Positions 2-35,651 of a DNA stretch of 35,651 bases are shown here, in pieces. The position numbers and the translations under genes are program-made. The DNA is from Candidatus Saccharimonadota bacterium. Lineage in GTDB: Bacteria; Patescibacteriota; Saccharimonadia; Saccharimonadales; Saccharimonadaceae. The notes below the pieces were generated by a model. The model was not told where the DNA came from, ran no database searches, and saw nothing but the letters and a program-made list of their open reading frames with translations. The first letter of the stretch is position 1. Each line of letters starts with the position of its first letter. The DNA lies in the NCBI GenBank assembly GCA_017511405.1, contig JAFWKB010000050.1, positions 1 to 35,651 of the forward strand, written 5' to 3'.

Positions 2-1690
2 TTAATTAATCTCGTTCCGCTTCAAGCGTTCGCAGATATAGAAATAATTCATGGCATTCCTGAGCCAGAAGAACCATTAATAGAAGCGCCCGAAGCAGTA
101 TATAAAATCGGTAACGTAATTTTAGATAATCAAAAAAGCTACTATAAAAATGGCAAGGCAATCGAATATTGCGATTTTGATAATGACGATGATTGCACGC
201 TTTTTTATCACTATCGCCCGCAACAGTATCGTACTCTCTACATGAAAAACTACACCGGCCCAGAAATTTCTCTAATCGCAGATACAATCCAACACGCCGA
301 CATCAGATTCCTCGGAAATAATACAATCAACTCAGAAAACGAGTTTGGATTTTATTTCCCAGGGGCAAACAAAGAGACGACAACATATTTCGATCCGCAA
401 GACAACAACGCAAGCTTAACAATCAACGTTAATTCCAAAACAGAAAAAGCAATCGGCATTTATTCCGAAAGATCAAATCTATATTTTAAGAACAAAGCAA
501 AATACGAAATCAATATTAACTCCGCTCTACCAGAAGAAAAAATATCAACATCAGAGGTAGCAGGAATCAGAGTAGATAATCATGGTTCAATTCAAATTGA
601 CGAGAGAAGCAAGCTTGCAATCAATAATCCAACCGGAAACTATTCAATCTACGGAGACACAATCAGAATAGCCACAACAAGCATGGAATACTGTAAAGGA
701 TTAGGCGGAAACGAAAGGGAATGTGACGCAAATTTTGTTTTTACACATAAAATTACCGACGGAGTCGGTGACGTCATACCTGGTAATGATTTTGTAGAGG
801 AAGAACAAAGAAGCGAAAAAATCGCTTGGACAAACGGTTATTATACATTCGATTATATCAAAACCGACAATTTAGGAACATTTCGATTAATCCCGAGAAT
901 TAACGGAGTAAATGCCGAAGTCGTAGCAGAAATAATAGAAGATATGTCGTTTGATGAGGCGGAAAAATCGCTCAAAAACACATTAGTAAGATATGATAAT
1001 ATAAAAGAATTACTTGAAGAATATGACCAAAACCACTACGATAGCATGTTTTATCGCGTAAGTCCAGAAATTTCATACCTCATCAACGAGACAAATCCAG
1101 AAGACAAAAACAAAATAAAACTAGAAGATAAGTATGCATTTTATGTTGGATTCGAAACAACGGATCAAAATCACGGATTCGAAAGTTTAAGTAATAATCA
1201 TTGCGGAATACCTTTCTCGGATGCCATAATTAACGAAACAGTATATAGCTGTCATTCAGAAAATCGTACCCGAAATCCAGACGACCCCTTCAAAGAATGG
1301 TTTAAGCTAGAAATCTCAGTAAAGAAAAAAGAAGAGTCAATAGAGAAGCAAGAAGAACCAACCGAAGAAAAGCCAGAAGAGAAAACGGAAGAAGATCCAA
1401 AAAAAGAACTCAAAATAATGGAACAACCCAAAATAGAAAAGTCAAAAAACCTGCCAATGCTACCGATATTAGCACCAAACACAGGAATATTAACGCACGA
1501 AGAATCAAACTCAAAAGAACAAAGTTTGACCGTTCTAATGTTAATAACTATTTCAACATCCGTGTTACAATTAGCTTATTATGGCAAAACTATACTTTCG
1601 TTACGGCGCAATGGGGTGCGGAAAAACCATGCAACTCCTTCAAGTAGCATTCAACTACGAGGAAAGGGGTCATCAAGTTTGCGTCATTAA
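2..1690 (+). CDS. Secreted/cell-surface protein, 5'-partial (start lies upstream of window); E/K/P-rich stalk, LPXTG-like APNTG motif, C-terminal hydrophobic segment
   Basis: Frame of ORF 242..1690 is open back to base 2 (LINLVPLQAFA-DIEII..., looks like the end of a signal peptide). C-terminus has KKEESIEKQEEPTEEKPEEK, LAPNTG, LTVLMLITISTSVLQLAYY and a basic tail; overlaps tdk by 110 nt. Confidence 0.7.
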   Translation, partial: LINLVPLQAFADIEIIHGIPEPEEPLIEAPEAVYKIGNVILDNQKSYYKNGKAIEYCDFDNDDDCTLFYHYRPQQYRTLYMKNYTGPEISLIADTIQHADIRFLGNNTINSENEFGFYFPGANKETTTYFDPQDNNASLTINVNSKTEKAIGIYSERSNLYFKNKAKYEININSALPEEKISTSEVAGIRVDNHGSIQIDERSKLAINNPTGNYSIYGDTIRIATTSMEYCKGLGGNERECDANFVFTHKITDGVGDVIPGNDFVEEEQRSEKIAWTNGYYTFDYIKTDNLGTFRLIPRINGVNAEVVAEIIEDMSFDEAEKSLKNTLVRYDNIKELLEEYDQNHYDSMFYRVSPEISYLINETNPEDKNKIKLEDKYAFYVGFETTDQNHGFESLSNNHCGIPFSDAIINETVYSCHSENRTRNPDDPFKEWFKLEISVKKKEESIEKQEEPTEEKPEEKTEEDPKKELKIMEQPKIEKSKNLPMLPILAPNTGILTHEESNSKEQSLTVLMLITISTSVLQLAYYGKTILSLRRNGVRKNHATPSSSIQLRGKGSSSLRH

Positions 1691-8877: not shown

Positions 8878-9624
8878 ATGCCAGACGCTAATCAAATCAA
8901 ATCAGAAGAAAAACGCTTCCAAGAAGTTGCAAAAGAGCTTGAATCTGCCGATTACGATCGCGCTCAAGCTTATGCTAAAGACCTTCTCTCTGGCCTCCGC
9001 ATCGTAAGGACCTTCCCACAAGGCGTAACTATCTATGGTTCTGCAAGATTAAAAGAAACTAGCCCCTACTACAAAAAAGCGCGCGAACTCGGACAACATC
9101 TCGCCGAGAATGGTCACGCCGTGATTACGGGCGGCGGTCCCGGCATCATGGAGGCCGCGAATCGAGGCTCGTTCGAATATGGCGGACGTTCCATAGGACT
9201 AAATATCACCCTCAGCCACGAACAACATCCAAACCCATATCTAACAGATATGCTCCAATTTCAATATTTCTTCGCTCGGAAAGTCATGCTCGCTATGTCC
9301 GCAAAAGTCTACGTCTTTTTTCCTGGAGGTTTTGGCACTATGGATGAGTTCAGTGAAATCCTCATCTTGATGCAAGAAGGAAAGATGCCCAAAATGCCAA
9401 TGTTCCTCTTCGGAAAATCCTTCTGGCGTCCCCTAGACCGTTTTTACGCAACCAAAATGGCCCCCCTAAAATTAATAAACTCCGAGGACAGAAAAATCTA
9501 CAAACTTACCGATTCAATCGAGGAAATCGTCGAAGCCGCCAATAAAATTGGCCACCCAAAGGTTAAAACCAATTATTACGACGGCTTCAGTAAAGCTAGT
9601 AAAATTGCTCAGCCAATAATATAA
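8878..9624 (+). CDS. LOG/SLOG-family (TIGR00730-like) nucleotide phosphoribohydrolase
   Basis: YGSAR, TGGGPGIMEAANRG, FFARK, PGGFGTMDE. Confidence 0.92.
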   Translation: MPDANQIKSEEKRFQEVAKELESADYDRAQAYAKDLLSGLRIVRTFPQGVTIYGSARLKETSPYYKKARELGQHLAENGHAVITGGGPGIMEAANRGSFEYGGRSIGLNITLSHEQHPNPYLTDMLQFQYFFARKVMLAMSAKVYVFFPGGFGTMDEFSEILILMQEGKMPKMPMFLFGKSFWRPLDRFYATKMAPLKLINSEDRKIYKLTDSIEEIVEAANKIGHPKVKTNYYDGFSKASKIAQPII

Positions 9625-11547: not shown

Positions 11548-14500
11548 TCAAGCAGAAGTTTTTTCAATCAATAACTTTATAAAATTTTTTACATCCTTCA
11601 TTGTTTTATTCTTGTCAGCCTCAACTCTAAGTTCATCATCGTCGAGAAATTCCAAACTAGTCGCTTGTTTATAGACAACAGAAATAAGTTGCTTTAGTGT
11701 TTTCTCATCAGTCCGCTCAAATTCCTCAAAATCCAACACCTTATCATAAACTTTTCCTTCCTCATCTGGATTAACGAAAAGAATGTGACCTTTCGTAACT
11801 TTATAAAGTTTATATGTCGGGGAATTATTAAGCATCAACTTATAAAACCCAAGTTGAAGACTATATTTATATAAAGAATTAACACTCCCCCACTTTTCCT
11901 TATGATACTTCCCGGTCTTAAAATCATAAATCTCAATCGTTTTCTTCTCTTTTTCGATCGCTACATGGTCAAGAACTCCCGTCACCGGAACACCGTCAAT
12001 CGTTATATGTTCGCCTTTTAAATCCAACTCTGCGCGCGAATTTTGAGCGCGGAGCAAATCTCCGAAACTCTCAAGCGATGTTCTCAAGGCAAGCTCTCCA
12101 ATTTCTAGCAATTCTTTAAGTTCCCTCCCTGTTAAATCCGAGCATTCCGCCTCTTTTCTTAATCCCTCAACCGCCTCTTCATCAGAAATACCATCTGCTG
12201 TAATCTTCTGAAAAGCATGGTGAACCAAGTTTCCAAGTATAATGTTTGAAGTTGCCGGAGGCTGAGGTGTTCTAAGTACCTTTTTCTCGAAAAACGCCAT
12301 CGGCCCGCCATAAGAAATATCAACAAAACTTGCTAAATCTGTCGAAGTTAACTTATAATTTTCCATCCGCCTCAAAAGAATCGGACGAAGCTCAGGAGTG
12401 TTTCTTACATAAGCACTCCGCCAAGTCTTCCTCAGGTCAACCGTCTTACGAAGCTCTTTCAAATCATTATAATGCAAAGAAACTTTATAAAGTTTTTCTG
12501 AGTTTTTAGGGTTTATTATAAGTGGAGAAATCACATTTCCGTCATCGTCAACGTATTCCTCGAGATAGCTCAACCTAGCCGGACTCTTGCCAGAAAAATC
12601 TTTCGTCGAATTGGTCATTACTAATGCTTTCTTGGCTCGAGTTATCGCCACAAACAAAAGCCGCAGTTTTTCATCGTCAGTTGTCCCCGTATGTCGAATT
12701 TGCACCATATTTTTCGGCAAAGAAAGTAAATTATTATTACCTTTTCCTCTACCCCAGTTTACATTATCAGTCGCAATCAGAAAAACATACTCATATTCAA
12801 GCCCCTTCGATTTATGCGCTGTCACAAGCTGAACCGCATCTTCAGAATCGCGATACGGCGAAGTGTTCACGAGTCCCATCCCCGCCTCTTCATAATCTTC
12901 AAGGAGTAGCACCAGATCTTTTAATCTCAACGTCTTTTCCTTAGAATAGCTCAAAATCGCTTCTCTCAAAACGGCCAAGTTTTCATAAAGTTCAAACGTC
13001 TCAAAACTATCCTGTTCTTTAGCATAAAATTCCAAAAATGGCGAACGAAACGCTCTAGTTTCGACCGAAATCTCCAACTCAACTGAACCAACCATATAAT
13101 CAAGCATTAGCTCAAGCGGCGTATCAAAAGACAACATCGTCAGCTTCGCCAAAAACTCAGCCAACTCTCTAATCTTAGGCGAAGAGGATTTCAAAAGATA
13201 ATCAAGTCCAGATTTCTTATCTTCTTTTGCCTGATAAACCGCAGATATTGCCTCCGCACTCGGAATTTGCCAAAACGGAAAACTCATAATCTCGAGCAAA
13301 CGAGAGGAGATATTTTTACCAAGCGATAAATCATAGATAAACCTACTTAATGTCAGAATTTCCGACAAACGAGGGTCCTCAAAAATATTATCTCTCTTCT
13401 CGTAAGCAATATTTAAATTCTCCTTCTCCTTCAAAAACGGCAACAAAGGAGCTATGTACTTATGTTTCGGCGCAATAATTGCAATTTCTTTTTGAGGAAC
13501 ACCCTGTTTAATAAGTTTAGAAATCTCATCCGCCACAAACTGATATTCTTGATCAGAAGTCAAAAACTCGTGTCGAGAGATAATTCCGCCTGGGCCTTTA
13601 AAGGCAGTCAATTTCTTCGAAAGACCCATCTCTTTTGCACCCTCATTTTTTACGAAACTATTAGAAATCTGATCCGCAATCTTACGGGAAAAATCGAGTA
13701 TTTCTTGATTTGAGCGATAGTTTTCTTCCAGATTTACAACTTTCGCCCCATAATATTGCTCAAAATTCAACAAATTCGACGCATCTGCCCCCTGAAACTC
13801 AAAAATTGCCTGGTCATCATCTCCAACCGCCATCACATTTGGTTTTTCGTAATCAGTTAAAAGCCGGATAATCTCTGCTTGGCTCGGATTAGTATCTTGG
13901 AATTCATCAAGAAGAATATACTGATACCTTTCCTGGCAAGTCAACCTAAACGCCTCGTCTTTCTTCAGAAAAGAAATCGCCTGTTCAATCATATCATCAA
14001 AATCATAAAGTCCATCTTTTTCAAGCAACTCGGAATATTTAATCATTATCTTCCCCAAAGATTTCAACTTCTTGTTCGCAACTCTATCTTTAAGACAATA
14101 ACCACCATCATCCTTGCGTTCGAAGCATGCTTTTTTCCAATCGGAGAAGGGTTTCACCGAAACTTTTTTCCCGTTCGCATCCAAATCTTCCGCCTCACGG
14201 ATTAACCTCGCCAAATCTCGCGCAAGCACATTAGAAACAGGCTCAATATCTCTTACAATTTTTTCTTTCGAAACATATTTGACCAGAATCTCAAGAATAG
14301 GCCTATAAACATCATCAACAACCTCCGGATAGCGAGCACCTTTTTTAGCACCTTCCAAAATCGGAGAAATCTCAGAATTTAGCTCATCACTCAAAGCCTC
14401 ATTTTTCTCTGCAACTTTAATCAAATCTTCACCAGACAATCTCGCCTGCTTAGCGCTTGAAATCGTATCTAAAATATCTCTTAAAGCCGAATGTTTCAAA

Positions 14501-15847: not shown

Positions 15848-16807
15848 ATGAATATCTGGGATAACCTCAAAAAGCCAATTCTTGCACTCGCCCCAATGGA
15901 GGGAGTGACCGACATAGTTTTTCGACAAGTTATCTCAAAAGCTTCGCGTCCTGATCTATTCTTTACGGAATTCACCAACGTTTCCTCTTTCGCTTCAGAG
16001 AAAGGCCGCCACGACGCCCTCTCTCGTCTCAAAATTTCCCCCTCCGACTCCCCGATAATCGCCCAAATTTGGGGCAAGAATCCCGAACATTTTTCGGAAC
16101 TTTCATCCGCGCTCAAAAATCTCGGTTTTTCCGGTATTGACCTCAATTTTGGTTGCCCCGATCGTCATGTTAACCGTGCCGGAGGAGGAGCAGCCATGAT
16201 TAAAACTCCTGACCTCGCCGTCGAATGTGTACGTCGCGCCAAAAACTCGTCAAACGGCCTTCCCATCTCCGTAAAAACTCGTCTCGGTTTCACCTATCTC
16301 GAAGAATACAAAACTTGGCTTCCGACTATCTTGAGCGAACATCCTTCCGCCCTTACAGTTCATCTCCGAACACGAAAAGAAATGTCTAAAGTCCCCGCCC
16401 ATTTCGAGCTTATCCCCGAAATAATTAAACTAAGGAACGAATTTTCTCCCGAAACCAAACTTCTCATCAACGGAGACATCAAAAATCGCGCCGAAGCTCT
16501 AAAACTCTACCAAAAACATCCCGAAATTGACGGATTTATGATTGGGCGCGGCGTCTTTGAAAACCCTTTCTGTTTCAAGAGAACAGAAGACAATCTTCCT
16601 TACGCCCCAACAAAAGAAGAACTCTTCGCCTTATTAAACTATCATCTTGATGTCTTCGACCAAAACTCACCCCAACCTTACGAGCCCCTTAAACATTTCT
16701 TTAAGGTTTATGTCAAAGATTTTCCCGGCGCCTCCGAGCTTCGAACTAAAATGATGGAATGCAAAAATACAAATGAGCTTCGAGAAATCATCAACTCTTA
16801 CTCGTGA
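15848..16807 (+). CDS. dus: tRNA-dihydrouridine synthase (Dus family)
   Basis: LAPMEGVTD, TEF, AQIWG, IDLNFGCP, SVKTRLG, TVHLRT, INGDI, MIGRG. Confidence 0.94.
   Translation: MNIWDNLKKPILALAPMEGVTDIVFRQVISKASRPDLFFTEFTNVSSFASEKGRHDALSRLKISPSDSPIIAQIWGKNPEHFSELSSALKNLGFSGIDLNFGCPDRHVNRAGGGAAMIKTPDLAVECVRRAKNSSNGLPISVKTRLGFTYLEEYKTWLPTILSEHPSALTVHLRTRKEMSKVPAHFELIPEIIKLRNEFSPETKLLINGDIKNRAEALKLYQKHPEIDGFMIGRGVFENPFCFKRTEDNLPYAPTKEELFALLNYHLDVFDQNSPQPYEPLKHFFKVYVKDFPGASELRTKMMECKNTNELREIINSYS
16091..16120 (+). repeat. Dispersed 30-bp motif copy (TTTTCGGAACTTTCATCCGCGCTCAAAAAT) inside dus
   Basis: 28/30 identical to the copy at 35281-35310. Confidence 0.9.
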
Positions 16808-25076: not shown

Positions 25077-26216
25077 ATGAACGCGCTTATTCTTATTTTA
25101 CTAATAATAAATCTCCTCCTCTCCCTTACAATAATCTATAAAATCTTTTTCGCACCAACCACCTCAGCTGATTCCGAATTAAAACGCAACCTCGCTAAAA
25201 CCGAAGGTAAAATCGAACTCCTTACTCAAAAAATCGATTCTCTTGCCCCAACTCTTTCCGACGAATTCCGAAAAAATCGCAAAGAATTAAATGAAAACTT
25301 TGAGAAAATTCAATCCTCAAATGAGAAAAAACTCGAACAAATGCGTGAAACTGTCGACGAAAAGCTTCAAGCTTCCGTCGAAAAACGCTTCAATAACAGC
25401 TTCAAAACTATTTCCGAACAACTAACCCAAGTTTACCAAGGTCTCGGCGAGATGAAAAACCTCGCCACAGGAGTCGGTAACCTTAAAAAGGTTATGGAGG
25501 GGGTCAAAACTCGCGGCGTTTATGGCGAGGTTCAACTCGGAGCAATTATCGAAGATACTTTAAATCCGACTCAATACCTAACTAACACCTTAATCAAAAA
25601 GGGAAGCAAAGACCGTGTAGAATTCGCAATTAAGCTCCCCGGGAAAGGAAAATCCGAAATCCTTCTCCCAATCGACTCAAAATTCCCCATCGAGAATTAT
25701 CAACGTCTCCTCTCCGCCTACGAAGCGGGAGATAAACAAGAAATAGAAAAATATCGCAAAGAACTACGCAAAAACGTCCTTGACCAAGCCAAGAAAATTC
25801 AAGAAAAATATATTGAAGTTCCTAAAACCGCAAACTTCGCCATGATGTTTATCCCAACCGAAAGCCTCTATGCCGAAATCTTGCGCATTCCTGGCCTAGA
25901 CGAAGAGGTTCGCAAAAAATATAACATCTCCATATCTAGCCCCTCTACTCTCCCCGTCATGCTCGGCGGCCTTCTTATGGGCTACCGCAGCGTCGCTATA
26001 GAAAAACGCTCCGCCGAGGTCTGGAAAATTCTCGAAGGAGTTCGGGCCAACTTTGGCAAATTCAGCGATCTTCTCGAAGCCGTCGAGAAAAAACTTGGCG
26101 AAAGTGCAGACAAAATTGGCTCCGCCAAAAAACAAGCCGTTAAAATCCAAACCCAGATGGAAAACATCGCCCTTCCCGATTCCTCGTCGGAAATGCCGCC
26201 CGCGCTCAAAATTTAA
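25077..26216 (+). CDS. rmuC: DNA recombination protein RmuC
   Basis: N-terminal TM, LEQMRETVDEKLQ, KTRGVYGEVQL, LPIDSKFP, FAMMFIPTESLYAE; start reset to MNALIL. Confidence 0.93.
   Translation: MNALILILLIINLLLSLTIIYKIFFAPTTSADSELKRNLAKTEGKIELLTQKIDSLAPTLSDEFRKNRKELNENFEKIQSSNEKKLEQMRETVDEKLQASVEKRFNNSFKTISEQLTQVYQGLGEMKNLATGVGNLKKVMEGVKTRGVYGEVQLGAIIEDTLNPTQYLTNTLIKKGSKDRVEFAIKLPGKGKSEILLPIDSKFPIENYQRLLSAYEAGDKQEIEKYRKELRKNVLDQAKKIQEKYIEVPKTANFAMMFIPTESLYAEILRIPGLDEEVRKKYNISISSPSTLPVMLGGLLMGYRSVAIEKRSAEVWKILEGVRANFGKFSDLLEAVEKKLGESADKIGSAKKQAVKIQTQMENIALPDSSSEMPPALKI
26184..26213 (+). repeat. Dispersed 30-bp motif copy (TCGTCGGAAATGCCGCCCGCGCTCAAAATT) at the 3' end of rmuC
   Basis: TCGGAA and CCCGCGCTCAAAATT at the same spacing as the other copies. 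Confidence 0.75.
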
Positions 26217-34473: not shown

Positions 34474-34695
34474 ATGATGATTAAAGTCTATACCACCCCG
34501 ACCTGTGTTTATTGTCACGCACTTATGGAATGGCTCGATGAGCTCGGGCAAGAATACGAAGAAATAAATGCCGAAAACCTTCCCGACATCAAATCTGTTC
34601 CTCTAACAATTTTCGTTGACAAAGCAGGGAACGAAACCAAGGTTCAAGGCTTCAATCGCCCTAAAATCAAAAAACTACTCAAGACCTTATCTTAA
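34474..34695 (+). CDS. Glutaredoxin/NrdH-like redoxin
   Basis: VYTTPTCVYC (CxxC), SVP, GFN. Confidence 0.88.
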   Translation: MMIKVYTTPTCVYCHALMEWLDELGQEYEEINAENLPDIKSVPLTIFVDKAGNETKVQGFNRPKIKKLLKTLS

Positions 34696-34700
34696 TTTTT

Positions 34701-34762
34701 AATCACCGCCCCTTGTTTCACCTCAATAAACTTTCGGAACTTTCCTCCGCGCTCAAAATTCC
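34701..34762 (+). repeat. Cassette leader copy A (contains the 30-bp motif at 34731-34760)
   Basis: Aligns with 35252-35312: AATC.CC.CC.CT...TTT.ACCTCAATAA..TTTCGGAACTTTC..CCGCGCTCAAAATTCC. Confidence 0.85.
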
Positions 34763-34779
34763 TCTTTCCGGCAACTTTC

Positions 34780-35000
34780 CTTCCAGAGCTCTCCGCAGCC
34801 TTCCTCTTTCGGTTATGATGTCGGGCTATCTCAGCTGGGACAGTGATAATCTCGGCAATAGAGGTACGCACGGCTACTTCTGGTCATCTACCCCCTATGC
34901 GTATACGTATTCGCACAACTTGAACTTCGCCTCCACTAGCGTTAACCCCATGTATGGCAGCAGTAAGCCAAACGGCTTACCCCTCCGCTGCGTTGTCCGT
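34780..35000 (+). repeat. Cassette 1: orphan DGR variable-region-like repeat (FISUMP/CLec C-terminus)
   Basis: SRALRSLPLSVMMSGYLSWDSDNLGNRGTHGYFWSSTPYAYTYSHNLNFASTSVNPMYGSSKPNGLPLRCV; collinear with cassettes 2 and 3. Confidence 0.85.
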
Positions 35001-35020
35001 CTCAAAAAGCGCTTCGTTTT

Positions 35021-35241
35021 CTTCCAGAGCTCTCCGCAGCCTTCCTCTTTCGGTTATGATGTCGGGCATTCTCAGCTGGAGCAGTGGTAATCTCTACAGT
35101 AGAGGTGCGGTCGGCTACTTCTGGTCATCTACGCCCTTCTCCTACTCAGATTCACGGTACTTGAATTTCGGCTCAACTAACATTAGCCCTAAGAATGGCA
35201 GCAATAAGCCCTACGGCTTAACCCTCCGCTGCGTCGCCCGT
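35021..35241 (+). repeat. Cassette 2: orphan DGR variable-region-like repeat
   Basis: SRALRSLPLSVMMSGILSWSSGNLYSRGAVGYFWSSTPFSYSDSRYLNFGSTNISPKNGSNKPYGLTLRCV. Confidence 0.85.
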
Positions 35242-35251
35242 TTTCCTCCAA

Positions 35252-35312
35252 AATCTCCACCTCTATTTTACCTCAATAACTTTTCGGAACTTTCACCCGC
35301 GCTCAAAATTCC
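35252..35312 (+). repeat. Cassette leader copy B (contains the 30-bp motif at 35281-35310)
   Basis: Homologous to 34701-34762, 550 bp apart. Confidence 0.85.
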
Positions 35313-35331
35313 GTACTTCTTTGCATGATTC

Positions 35332-35552
35332 CTTCCAGAGCTCTCCGCAGCCTTCCTCTTTCGGCTATGTTGTCGGGCTATCGCGTCTGGGGTAGTGGTA
35401 GTCTCAGCAGTAGAGGTACGTACGGCTACTTCTGGTCATCTACCCCCTACACATACACAAATTCGCACGCCTTGGGCTTCAGCTCCACTAACGTCGGCCC
35501 TAAGAATAGCTACCATAAGCCCTACGACTTTACTCTCCGCTGCGTCGCCCCA
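35332..35552 (+). repeat. Cassette 3: orphan DGR variable-region-like repeat
   Basis: SRALRSLPLSAMLSGYRVWGSGSLSSRGTYGYFWSSTPYTYTNSHALGFSSTNVGPKNSYHKPYDFTLRCV. Confidence 0.85.
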
Positions 35553-35651
35553 CTATTCCAACTCCCCAAGCGCCTCAAAAGCCGCAAATTGCTTCGCCCG
35601 CTTCTCCCGCGCCATCTTCGGCCTTGCCGACGTCGGCCGCTTTGAATCAAG
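35553..35651 (-). CDS. 3' end of a short YolD-like protein (start outside window; not in ORF track)
   Basis: Minus-strand frame reads LDSKRPTSARPKMAREKRAKQFAAFEALGELE*, resembling the YolD-like N-terminal motif PxM...RAxQF.PF.AL.G. Confidence 0.6.
   Translation of the reverse strand, partial: LDSKRPTSARPKMAREKRAKQFAAFEALGELE

What the first reader, a model, noticed from the sequence alone, without database searches (positions are those of the whole stretch)
34701..35552. Tandem array of orphan, DGR-diversified variable-region cassettes: candidate archive or donor library
Seen: three collinear 219-nt units without indels (starts 241 and 311 bp apart) between the stop codons of two convergent genes. 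By hand count about 59 columns vary, about 43 with A in at least one copy (37 of 43 at codon positions 1-2). Codon sets such as GGC/TAC/AGC, CAC/GTC/TAC, AAC/TAC/GCC, TAT/GAT/AAT, AAC/AGC/GGC and AGT/AAT/CAT collapse to AAC/AAT, while framework codons (RG, G.FWSS, LRC) are fixed. Known: this is the signature of DGR adenine mutagenesis, and G.WSST...RCV is the CLec-fold end of FISUMP (Fib_succ_major-like) proteins. None of the three is the all-A template, none is attached to a gene body, none has a stop after RCV, and no RT is in the window. Canonical VRs are the 3' ends of expressed genes. Inference: silent pre-diversified cassettes, either captured DGR cDNAs stored as a memory array or donors for gene conversion into expressed adhesin genes (vlsE/tprK/pilS-like), i.e. 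a DGR coupled to cassette-based variation.
Basis: partly seen in the sequence, partly recalled or inferred. Interest (0 to 1): 0.93.

Follow-up and report, generated by a model that had tools for sequence, protein, structure and literature searches.

The report
Silent library of retro-mutated adhesin tips
This tiny gut bacterium carries dozens of gene-less copies of the tip of a predicted surface protein, each bearing the adenine-specific changes typical of a mutagenic retroelement, and it likely recombines them into the working gene as a stored second source of variation.

Summary
The three units are real. They belong to 34 matches (28 complete) at 17 sites of a 60%-complete Saccharibacteria genome. 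None lies in a full gene. Variation falls on AAC/AAT-type codons. This assembly lacks their template (its one DGR RT has another), but sequencing runs show the full-length gene exists. Five same-genus species (G003, G104, G207, G378, G381) hold their own orphan sets, with template and RT present. Where testable, the cassettes carry gene-only sequence (5' arm, stop, tail) absent from the template, so they copy the gene's 3' end and are not captured cDNA. Arms are near-invariant, cores diverse; 43 of 44 length variants keep frame; linkage decays with distance; one site holds different cores in different assemblies. Best reading (0.55): a pilS/p44-like silent donor library stocked by DGR mutagenesis. 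Transfer into the expressed gene is not shown, and two intact target genes look purely template-derived. My paper searches found no description. The scan noted this before in other Saccharibacteria genomes (five notes).

The parts
34474..34695 (+). Glutaredoxin-like gene, left flank (not part of the cassette)
   Evidence: Pfam PF00462 E 4e-9
34701..34765 (+). Linker 1, ~60-nt repeat that accompanies cassettes at several sites
   Evidence: 84% match to 35252-35312, and matches beside cassettes on C22, C24, C59
34776..35000 (+). Cassette 1: constant 5' arm (~34782-34826), variable core (~34827-34982), constant 3' arm (from 34983)
   Evidence: a 108-nt piece is identical in run X3
35001..35016 (+). 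Short spacer between cassettes 1 and 2
   Evidence: The same spacer follows a different core in a protein from another assembly (P0009)
35017..35241 (+). Cassette 2
   Evidence: a 152-nt piece is identical in runs X1, X3, X4
35242..35327 (+). Linker 1, second copy, plus leader
35328..35552 (+). Cassette 3
   Evidence: a 134-nt piece is identical in runs X1, X3, X4
35553..35651 (-). End of a convergent reading frame, cut by the contig end (right flank, not part of the cassette)
   Evidence: Stop at 35555-35553; run contigs continue past it

Best explanation
The units are members of a genome-wide set of start-less copies of the 3' end of a FISUMP-domain (predicted C-type-lectin fold) gene, with adenine-specific variation that a DGR likely wrote, and they likely serve as silent donors that homologous recombination copies, whole or in pieces, into the expressed gene. 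Steps: (1) a DGR rewrites the variable region of one or a few full-length genes (shown by template-versus-copy comparison in relatives; inferred here from codon pattern); (2) DNA copies of the gene end, with fixed arms, are laid down at intergenic sites and amplified head to tail (the copies and their gene-derived borders are shown; the copying mechanism is unknown); (3) the copies exchange tracts with one another and turn over between strains (shown statistically in G000 and by same-flank comparisons); (4) they are recombined into the expression site through the two constant arms (inferred, not shown). The protein likely binds the host bacterium's surface (inferred from fold and Saccharibacteria biology).
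For: 34 matches, 28 with both arms, 17 sites, none in a full gene. Positions 1-2 of AAC/AAT codons in G104's template predict the variable columns of 24 G000 copies: mean minor-allele share 0.44 versus 0.08, p 3e-19. Mismatch to own template at A versus non-A: G207 337/963 versus 37/2244 (18 copies); G003 416/1089 versus 263/2924 (22 family-A copies); G381 341/756 versus 563/3087 (21 copies). Gene-derived borders: G207 arm matches the 652-codon gene on C15, not the template; G003 arm starts about 100 nt upstream of template homology, and 13 of 22 keep the gene's stop and tail; in G378, 65 of 66 copies in 105 kb read are orphans with the target gene's stop and tail. Frame kept in 43 of 44 length variants and stops in 2 of 134 copies over four genomes. 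G378 cores differ from the template at 2324/8033 non-A positions while the post-stop tail differs at 10/952. In G000, 62 of 153 pairs of non-A sites fail the four-gamete test and linkage falls with distance, rho -0.32, p 0.0002. One unique flank (C36) carries four different cores in four assemblies. The G003 gene on C26 ends, at its contig break, in non-template sequence identical to orphan C29:45837. Runs X1, X3 and X7 show gene-body sequence joined to the long arm, in X7 on a 4706-nt contig.
Against: No transfer into an expressed gene was seen. Both intact target genes that could be compared with their template look template-derived: G378, 23 A and 0 non-A differences; G207 C15, 16 A and 2 non-A. 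The 12 G207 copies tested are star-like (most shared derived alleles 10; null mean 9.7). The longest-shared-run test in G000 was borderline (32 columns; p 0.05 against one null, inside the range of the other). Private non-A changes in G000 are 14 synonymous to 14 non-synonymous, as neutral decay would give, and 4 of 25 copies have lost the conserved Cys. The cognate template and gene are missing from G000. Frame conservation could date from before copying, and detection needs both arms. The same-flank comparison uses cluster representatives, which favours different cores.
Confidence: 0.55

Rival explanations
1. One-way by-product: the gene end is copied out repeatedly and spreads as a repeat family (selfish, or carried by neighbouring MITE-like elements). 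The copies recombine with each other but never supply the expressed gene.
For: Template-like target genes; neutral-looking private changes; star-like G207 set; an orphan duplicated to a second site in G207; an inverted-repeat element beside several arrays in G000.
Against: Old, strongly diverged cores keep frame between near-identical arms. Both arms are kept precisely in six species, each with its own sequence family. Reduced genomes would be expected to lose such DNA (general knowledge, not tested).
Confidence: 0.23
2. The cassettes are themselves remote DGR targets, rewritten in place by cDNA through homology, as a silent pool or as bystanders. This can coexist with donor use.
For: Star-like, template-close G207 copies. 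The stem-loop is not strictly required for retrohoming (PMC12875486 passage) and is found in only 34% of DGRs (PMC5758913 passage). Same site, different cores.
Against: Pieces of cassettes 2 and 3 are identical in runs of three studies whose flanks differ at 2-5 of 1261 nt (one run may be the source). Most G207 orphans lack the longer 3' homology and predicted hairpin of the gene (one orphan folded). Most G378 cores are far from the present template. No strand bias by a crude skew test.
Confidence: 0.13
3. Each unit is translated as a small stand-alone protein from the Met-Met in its arm.
For: G000 units have a Met-Met codon pair, and gene callers annotate such short proteins.
Against: Only the last third of the domain is present; ends are unrelated and lack a common stop; G104 and most G381 copies have no Met upstream of the core; no promoter-like site in the region.
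Confidence: 0.04
4. CRISPR-like memory array of captured mutagenised cDNAs.
For: Tandem, co-oriented units with fixed borders; in G381 the 5' border nearly coincides with template homology.
Against: Gene-only arms, stops and tails in G003, G207 and G378; in G000 the arm's adenines are not mutated (1 of 120).
Confidence: 0.03
5. Assembly or binning artefact: population variants of one gene stacked by the assembler.
For: Short-read MAG; most sites lie near contig ends; no run contig spans the array.
Against: Copies are only 71-87% alike; some lie deep in contigs with unique flanks; independent assemblies and five other species show the same layout.
Confidence: 0.02

Closest known systems
DGRs with CLec2-class (DUF1566/DUF823/Fib_succ_major) targets, e.g. 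Legionella (PMC5758913, passages)
   Same: A-specific change at codon positions 1-2, Fib_succ_major C-terminus, RT plus AAC-rich template; multiple targets occur (up to eight in tandem in that survey).
   Different: Known variable regions lie inside target genes (PMC8144416, passage). Here 14-65 per genome lie outside any gene, dispersed, many far from the current template.
Multi-locus and remote-target DGRs of Thiohalocapsa PB-PSB1 (PMC10907252, passages)
   Same: Dispersed targets, duplicated C-terminal regions, MITE-like neighbours.
   Different: There the targets are genes with N-terminal domains; here they are gene-less fragments with fixed borders.
Silent-cassette gene conversion: Neisseria pilS/pilE, Anaplasma msp2/p44, Borrelia vls/vmp, Treponema tprK (PMC4534519, passages)
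   Same: Many promoterless truncated copies, single or tandem at several loci, conserved ends around a hypervariable core, one or few full genes, mosaic tracts.
   Different: The repertoire bears DGR mutagenesis; the organism belongs to a group known as epibionts of bacteria (recalled), so selection is probably binding range and not antibodies; one-way transfer is untested.

Membership tests
DGR (system) | Reverse transcriptase with accessory gene in the genome | tested here: met
   G000:C35 462-aa RT, PF00078 above cut-off; homologues in 210 of 369 genus genomes, many beside AAC-rich templates. The upstream ORF matched no family, so 'avd-like' rests on position only.
DGR (system) | Cognate template repeat nearly identical to the variable region | tested here: inconclusive
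   Not in G000: the C35 templates differ from the cassettes at 46% of non-A positions; the assembly is 60% complete. Present in G003, G104, G207, G378, G381 for their own cassettes.
DGR (system) | Differences concentrated at template adenines | tested here: met
   weaker in G378 orphans (1440/3061 A versus 2324/8033 non-A)
DGR variable region (canonical target) | Lies within the coding sequence of a target gene | tested here: not met
   No G000 copy is in a full gene; the three longer ones are 5'-truncated too (one starts at a contig end).
DGR variable region (canonical target) | IMH with downstream inverted repeat | tested here: inconclusive
   Constant GC-rich 3' arm present; in G207 the gene has longer template homology and a predicted hairpin (-12.3 kcal/mol), one orphan -5.8. 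Cannot be judged in G000 without its template.
DGR variable region (canonical target) | C-type lectin fold | tested here: met
   Model of the G207 domain, pLDDT 89.6. Foldseek gave no match at E <= 0.001. VIA re-alignment ranks CLec-fold chains first: Bd2740 Z 7.0 (rmsd 2.8, 97 aligned), FGE 6.9, Lcl 6.8, Mtd 6.0-6.3. Middling Z; tested on a relative's domain.
DGR variable region (canonical target) | Ongoing A-specific variation in populations | tested here: inconclusive
   Contig pieces identical across three studies; contigs drop rare variants; no raw reads.
Silent-cassette gene conversion | Multiple truncated copies without start or promoter | tested here: met
   silence itself was not measured
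Silent-cassette gene conversion | Conserved arms shared with a full-length expression gene | tested here: met
   G207 C15, G378 C12, G003 C26; for G000 from loose ends of run contigs. Expression not measured.
Silent-cassette gene conversion | Segmental exchange (mosaics) | tested here: met
   G000: four-gamete and linkage-decay tests. Not seen in G207.
Silent-cassette gene conversion | One-way transfer from silent copy into the expression locus | not testable with these tools
   Needs closed genomes and time series; snapshots are mixed.
cDNA-capture memory array | Units consist only of template-derived sequence | tested here: not met
MITE/REP-type mobile repeat | Terminal inverted repeats or target-site duplication on the unit | tested here: inconclusive
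   None evident in printed flanks or among the 25 longest inverted repeats listed; no empty site was available. A separate inverted-repeat element lies beside some arrays.

The most novel reading that the evidence does not exclude
A two-tier diversification system: the DGR generates variants at an expression gene, proven variants are archived as silent cassettes by a dedicated copy-out step with fixed borders, and the archive, including cores from templates since lost, is recalled by gene conversion. This is a heritable memory of past binding specificities in a bacterial epibiont.
Probability: 0.35. Interest if true: 0.92.

Novelty: new variant of a known kind. Interest (0 to 1): 0.8.

Why it matters
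DGRs are thought to overwrite their target and keep no record. Here several species with genomes near or under 1 Mb spend kilobases on intact, gene-less variants. If recalled, these would join two diversification strategies known separately (retro-mutagenesis and silent-cassette conversion) and give a testable route to how Saccharibacteria track changing hosts. The cassettes are also a dated sample of DGR output, and they explain why such genomes fragment and why annotation fills with spurious short proteins.

Tried and rejected
Template search in G000 by BLASTN and AAC-rich frames found only the C35 pair. The full-length gene was not found in G000 nor among 120 listed homologues of P0011. JGI metagenomes: no exact arm match, one distant locus not followed. 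GTDB contig scan: none. No same-family cassette in 368 other genus genomes; best matches 68-84% over part (two candidates scored per genome). No RNA holder listed, which is no evidence on expression. Depth over the constant arm exceeded single-copy depth more than 100-fold but sums overlapping contigs and is not a copy number. Run X7 at this site was inconclusive. No Rfam match; no PDB sequence match. Strand bias: 10 of 15 contigs, p 0.3. The wide VIA fold search was not obtained. DGR presence does not imply orphans: G019 showed a template and one close copy; the loci read in G192, G331, G345, G373, G379 and G385 held genes or templates (only part of each genome's matches was read). G011 and G008, where this RT query found nothing, showed FISUMP matches only in long frames. 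Rows dropped before counts: G000 C22+621 (compensating indels), three length variants and six partial copies from column tests; G003 one partial match and a 21-nt fragment; G207 two divergent and three contig-end matches.

Full report
Observation. The window is contig C44 of a 529-kb, 63-contig, 60%-complete assembly. Named homologues of its ribosomal L7/L12 at 94-98% identity are Candidatus Saccharibacteria, and holders of the stretch are animal gut metagenomes. The genus name Nanosyncoccus, which I used in one paper search, is my guess and comes from no call. Three gap-free 225-nt units start at 34776, 35017 and 35328. The units encode the last third of a Fib_succ_major/FISUMP domain.

Genome context. 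BLASTN finds 34 matches: 28 with both arms, the rest cut by contig ends or remnants, at 17 sites on 15 contigs, always co-oriented within a site. Some are exact head-to-tail fusions (C11, C54). Three have a longer 5' arm, but two of these begin in unrelated DNA and one at a contig end. All 21 Pfam matches to the family lie in frames of at most 245 codons. Among 25 equal-length copies, framework codons are fixed and variable codons are of NNC/NNT type. No copy is all-A (14-24 A at 43 inferred sites) and pairwise identity is 71-87%. The genome has one RT (C35) with two AAC-rich template-like repeats on the opposite strand, but these differ from the cassettes at 46% of non-A positions, so the cognate template is missing from the assembly. 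As an outside proxy, AAC/AAT positions 1-2 in the closely related template of G104 predict the variable columns (p 3e-19).

The expressed gene. It is not in G000. Laying four runs on the long cassette of C62 gave loose ends in X1, X3 and X7 that read as the motif that precedes this point in full-length relatives (P0011, P0272), and in X7 a 4706-nt contig leads into the arm. X4 gave two discordant ends. At least one full gene therefore exists in this species. Full-length relatives are 600-1300 aa FISUMP proteins whose N-termini look hydrophobic by eye. A model of the G207 domain (pLDDT 89.6) aligns best to C-type-lectin-fold chains including Mtd, at middling Z of 6-7 (Foldseek alone gave nothing significant).

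Relatives. A homologous RT occurs in 210 of 369 genus genomes, usually as target gene, accessory ORF, RT and a convergent template. Five other species hold orphans of their own sequence families. G207: of 18 close copies, one ends a 652-codon gene, 14 are orphans and three lack upstream context; mismatches to the template are 337/963 at A and 37/2244 elsewhere. G003: 22 family-A and 6 family-B copies. G381: 21 copies aligned, many in ~190-nt tandems. G104: two seen. G378: in 105 kb chosen for matches, 66 copies, of which one ends the gene beside the RT. In G003, G207 and G378 the orphans carry gene sequence that the template lacks (5' arm, or stop and tail). They are therefore copies of the gene end, not inserted cDNA. 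Other DGR-rich genomes read in part (G192, G331, G345, G373, G379, G385) had variable regions in genes, so the trait is patchy.

Are they junk or donors? For donors: 43 of 44 length variants are multiples of three and 2 of 134 copies have a stop. G378 cores are 29% diverged from the template at non-A sites while the non-coding tail is 1% diverged, so decay after copying cannot explain the cores. G000 copies recombine: 62 of 153 non-A site pairs show four gametes and linkage decays with distance (p 0.0002). The unique C36 flank carries four different cores across assemblies, and tracts recur at different sites. A G003 gene ends in non-template sequence identical to an orphan, direction unknown. 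Against: both intact target genes with a template look template-derived; 12 G207 copies are star-like; the longest-run test was borderline; private changes look neutral and the overall synonymous excess is weak (27:21, p 0.055); four copies have lost the terminal Cys. Pieces of the window's cassettes are unchanged across three studies, which argues against fast rewriting in place. I put donor library at 0.55, by-product at 0.23 and in-place targets at 0.13.

Literature. I read passages of PMC5758913, PMC8144416, PMC10907252 and PMC4534519; passages and section 11 of PMC12875486; and the abstract of PMC10053308. A term search in bioRxiv 10.1101/2024.11.15.621889 gave no hits. Other papers were seen as search listings only. 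Searches found no description of gene-less DGR cassette libraries. The library omits most subscription papers and I read no supplements, where lists of variable regions outside genes could exist. Five earlier AI notes of this scan report the same phenomenon in other Saccharibacteria genomes. I had reached my reading before seeing them and did not check their genomes.

Verdict. The feature is real and genus-recurrent. It works like a pilS/p44 cassette library and bears DGR mutagenesis, but it fails the canonical definition of a DGR target (not in a gene) and the decisive feature of a conversion system is untested. New variant of known kinds; interest 0.8.

Noticed in passing
G000 C11:668-822, C32:7570-7705 and 9092-9208, C54:4758-4955, C22:1062-1146, C47:68-161, C24:13575-13646: A ~150-nt element with ~20-nt terminal inverted repeats and strong predicted folding (MITE/REP-like or structured RNA); most copies lie beside cassette arrays.
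   Followed up: partly
window 12038-12067, 16092-16121, 26187-26213: The ~30-nt core of linker 1 also lies inside three protein-coding genes, suggesting a binding or uptake motif.
   Followed up: partly
L001 (G000:C35) 1-340 and 620-940: Two tandem, slightly different template repeats, convergent with the RT, with no matching variable region in the assembly.
   Followed up: partly
G192 (L128-L134): 47 variable-region ends; those read lie in genes, often two or three FISUMP domains in frame, each with its own diversified region.
   Followed up: partly
genus-wide: DGR-type RT in 210 of 369 genomes, up to four per genome, with a conserved convergent template layout.
   Followed up: partly
L137 (G104:C28) 4589 and L120 (G207:C13): At these DGR loci the position normally held by the target gene holds an orphan cassette.
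   Followed up: no
P0267, P0339: Proteins made of in-frame head-to-tail variable-region units from another family, possibly translated cassette arrays.
   Followed up: no
window 2-1690: A large surface-like protein also begun at the end of contig C61, so it may be duplicated or the contigs overlap.
   Followed up: no
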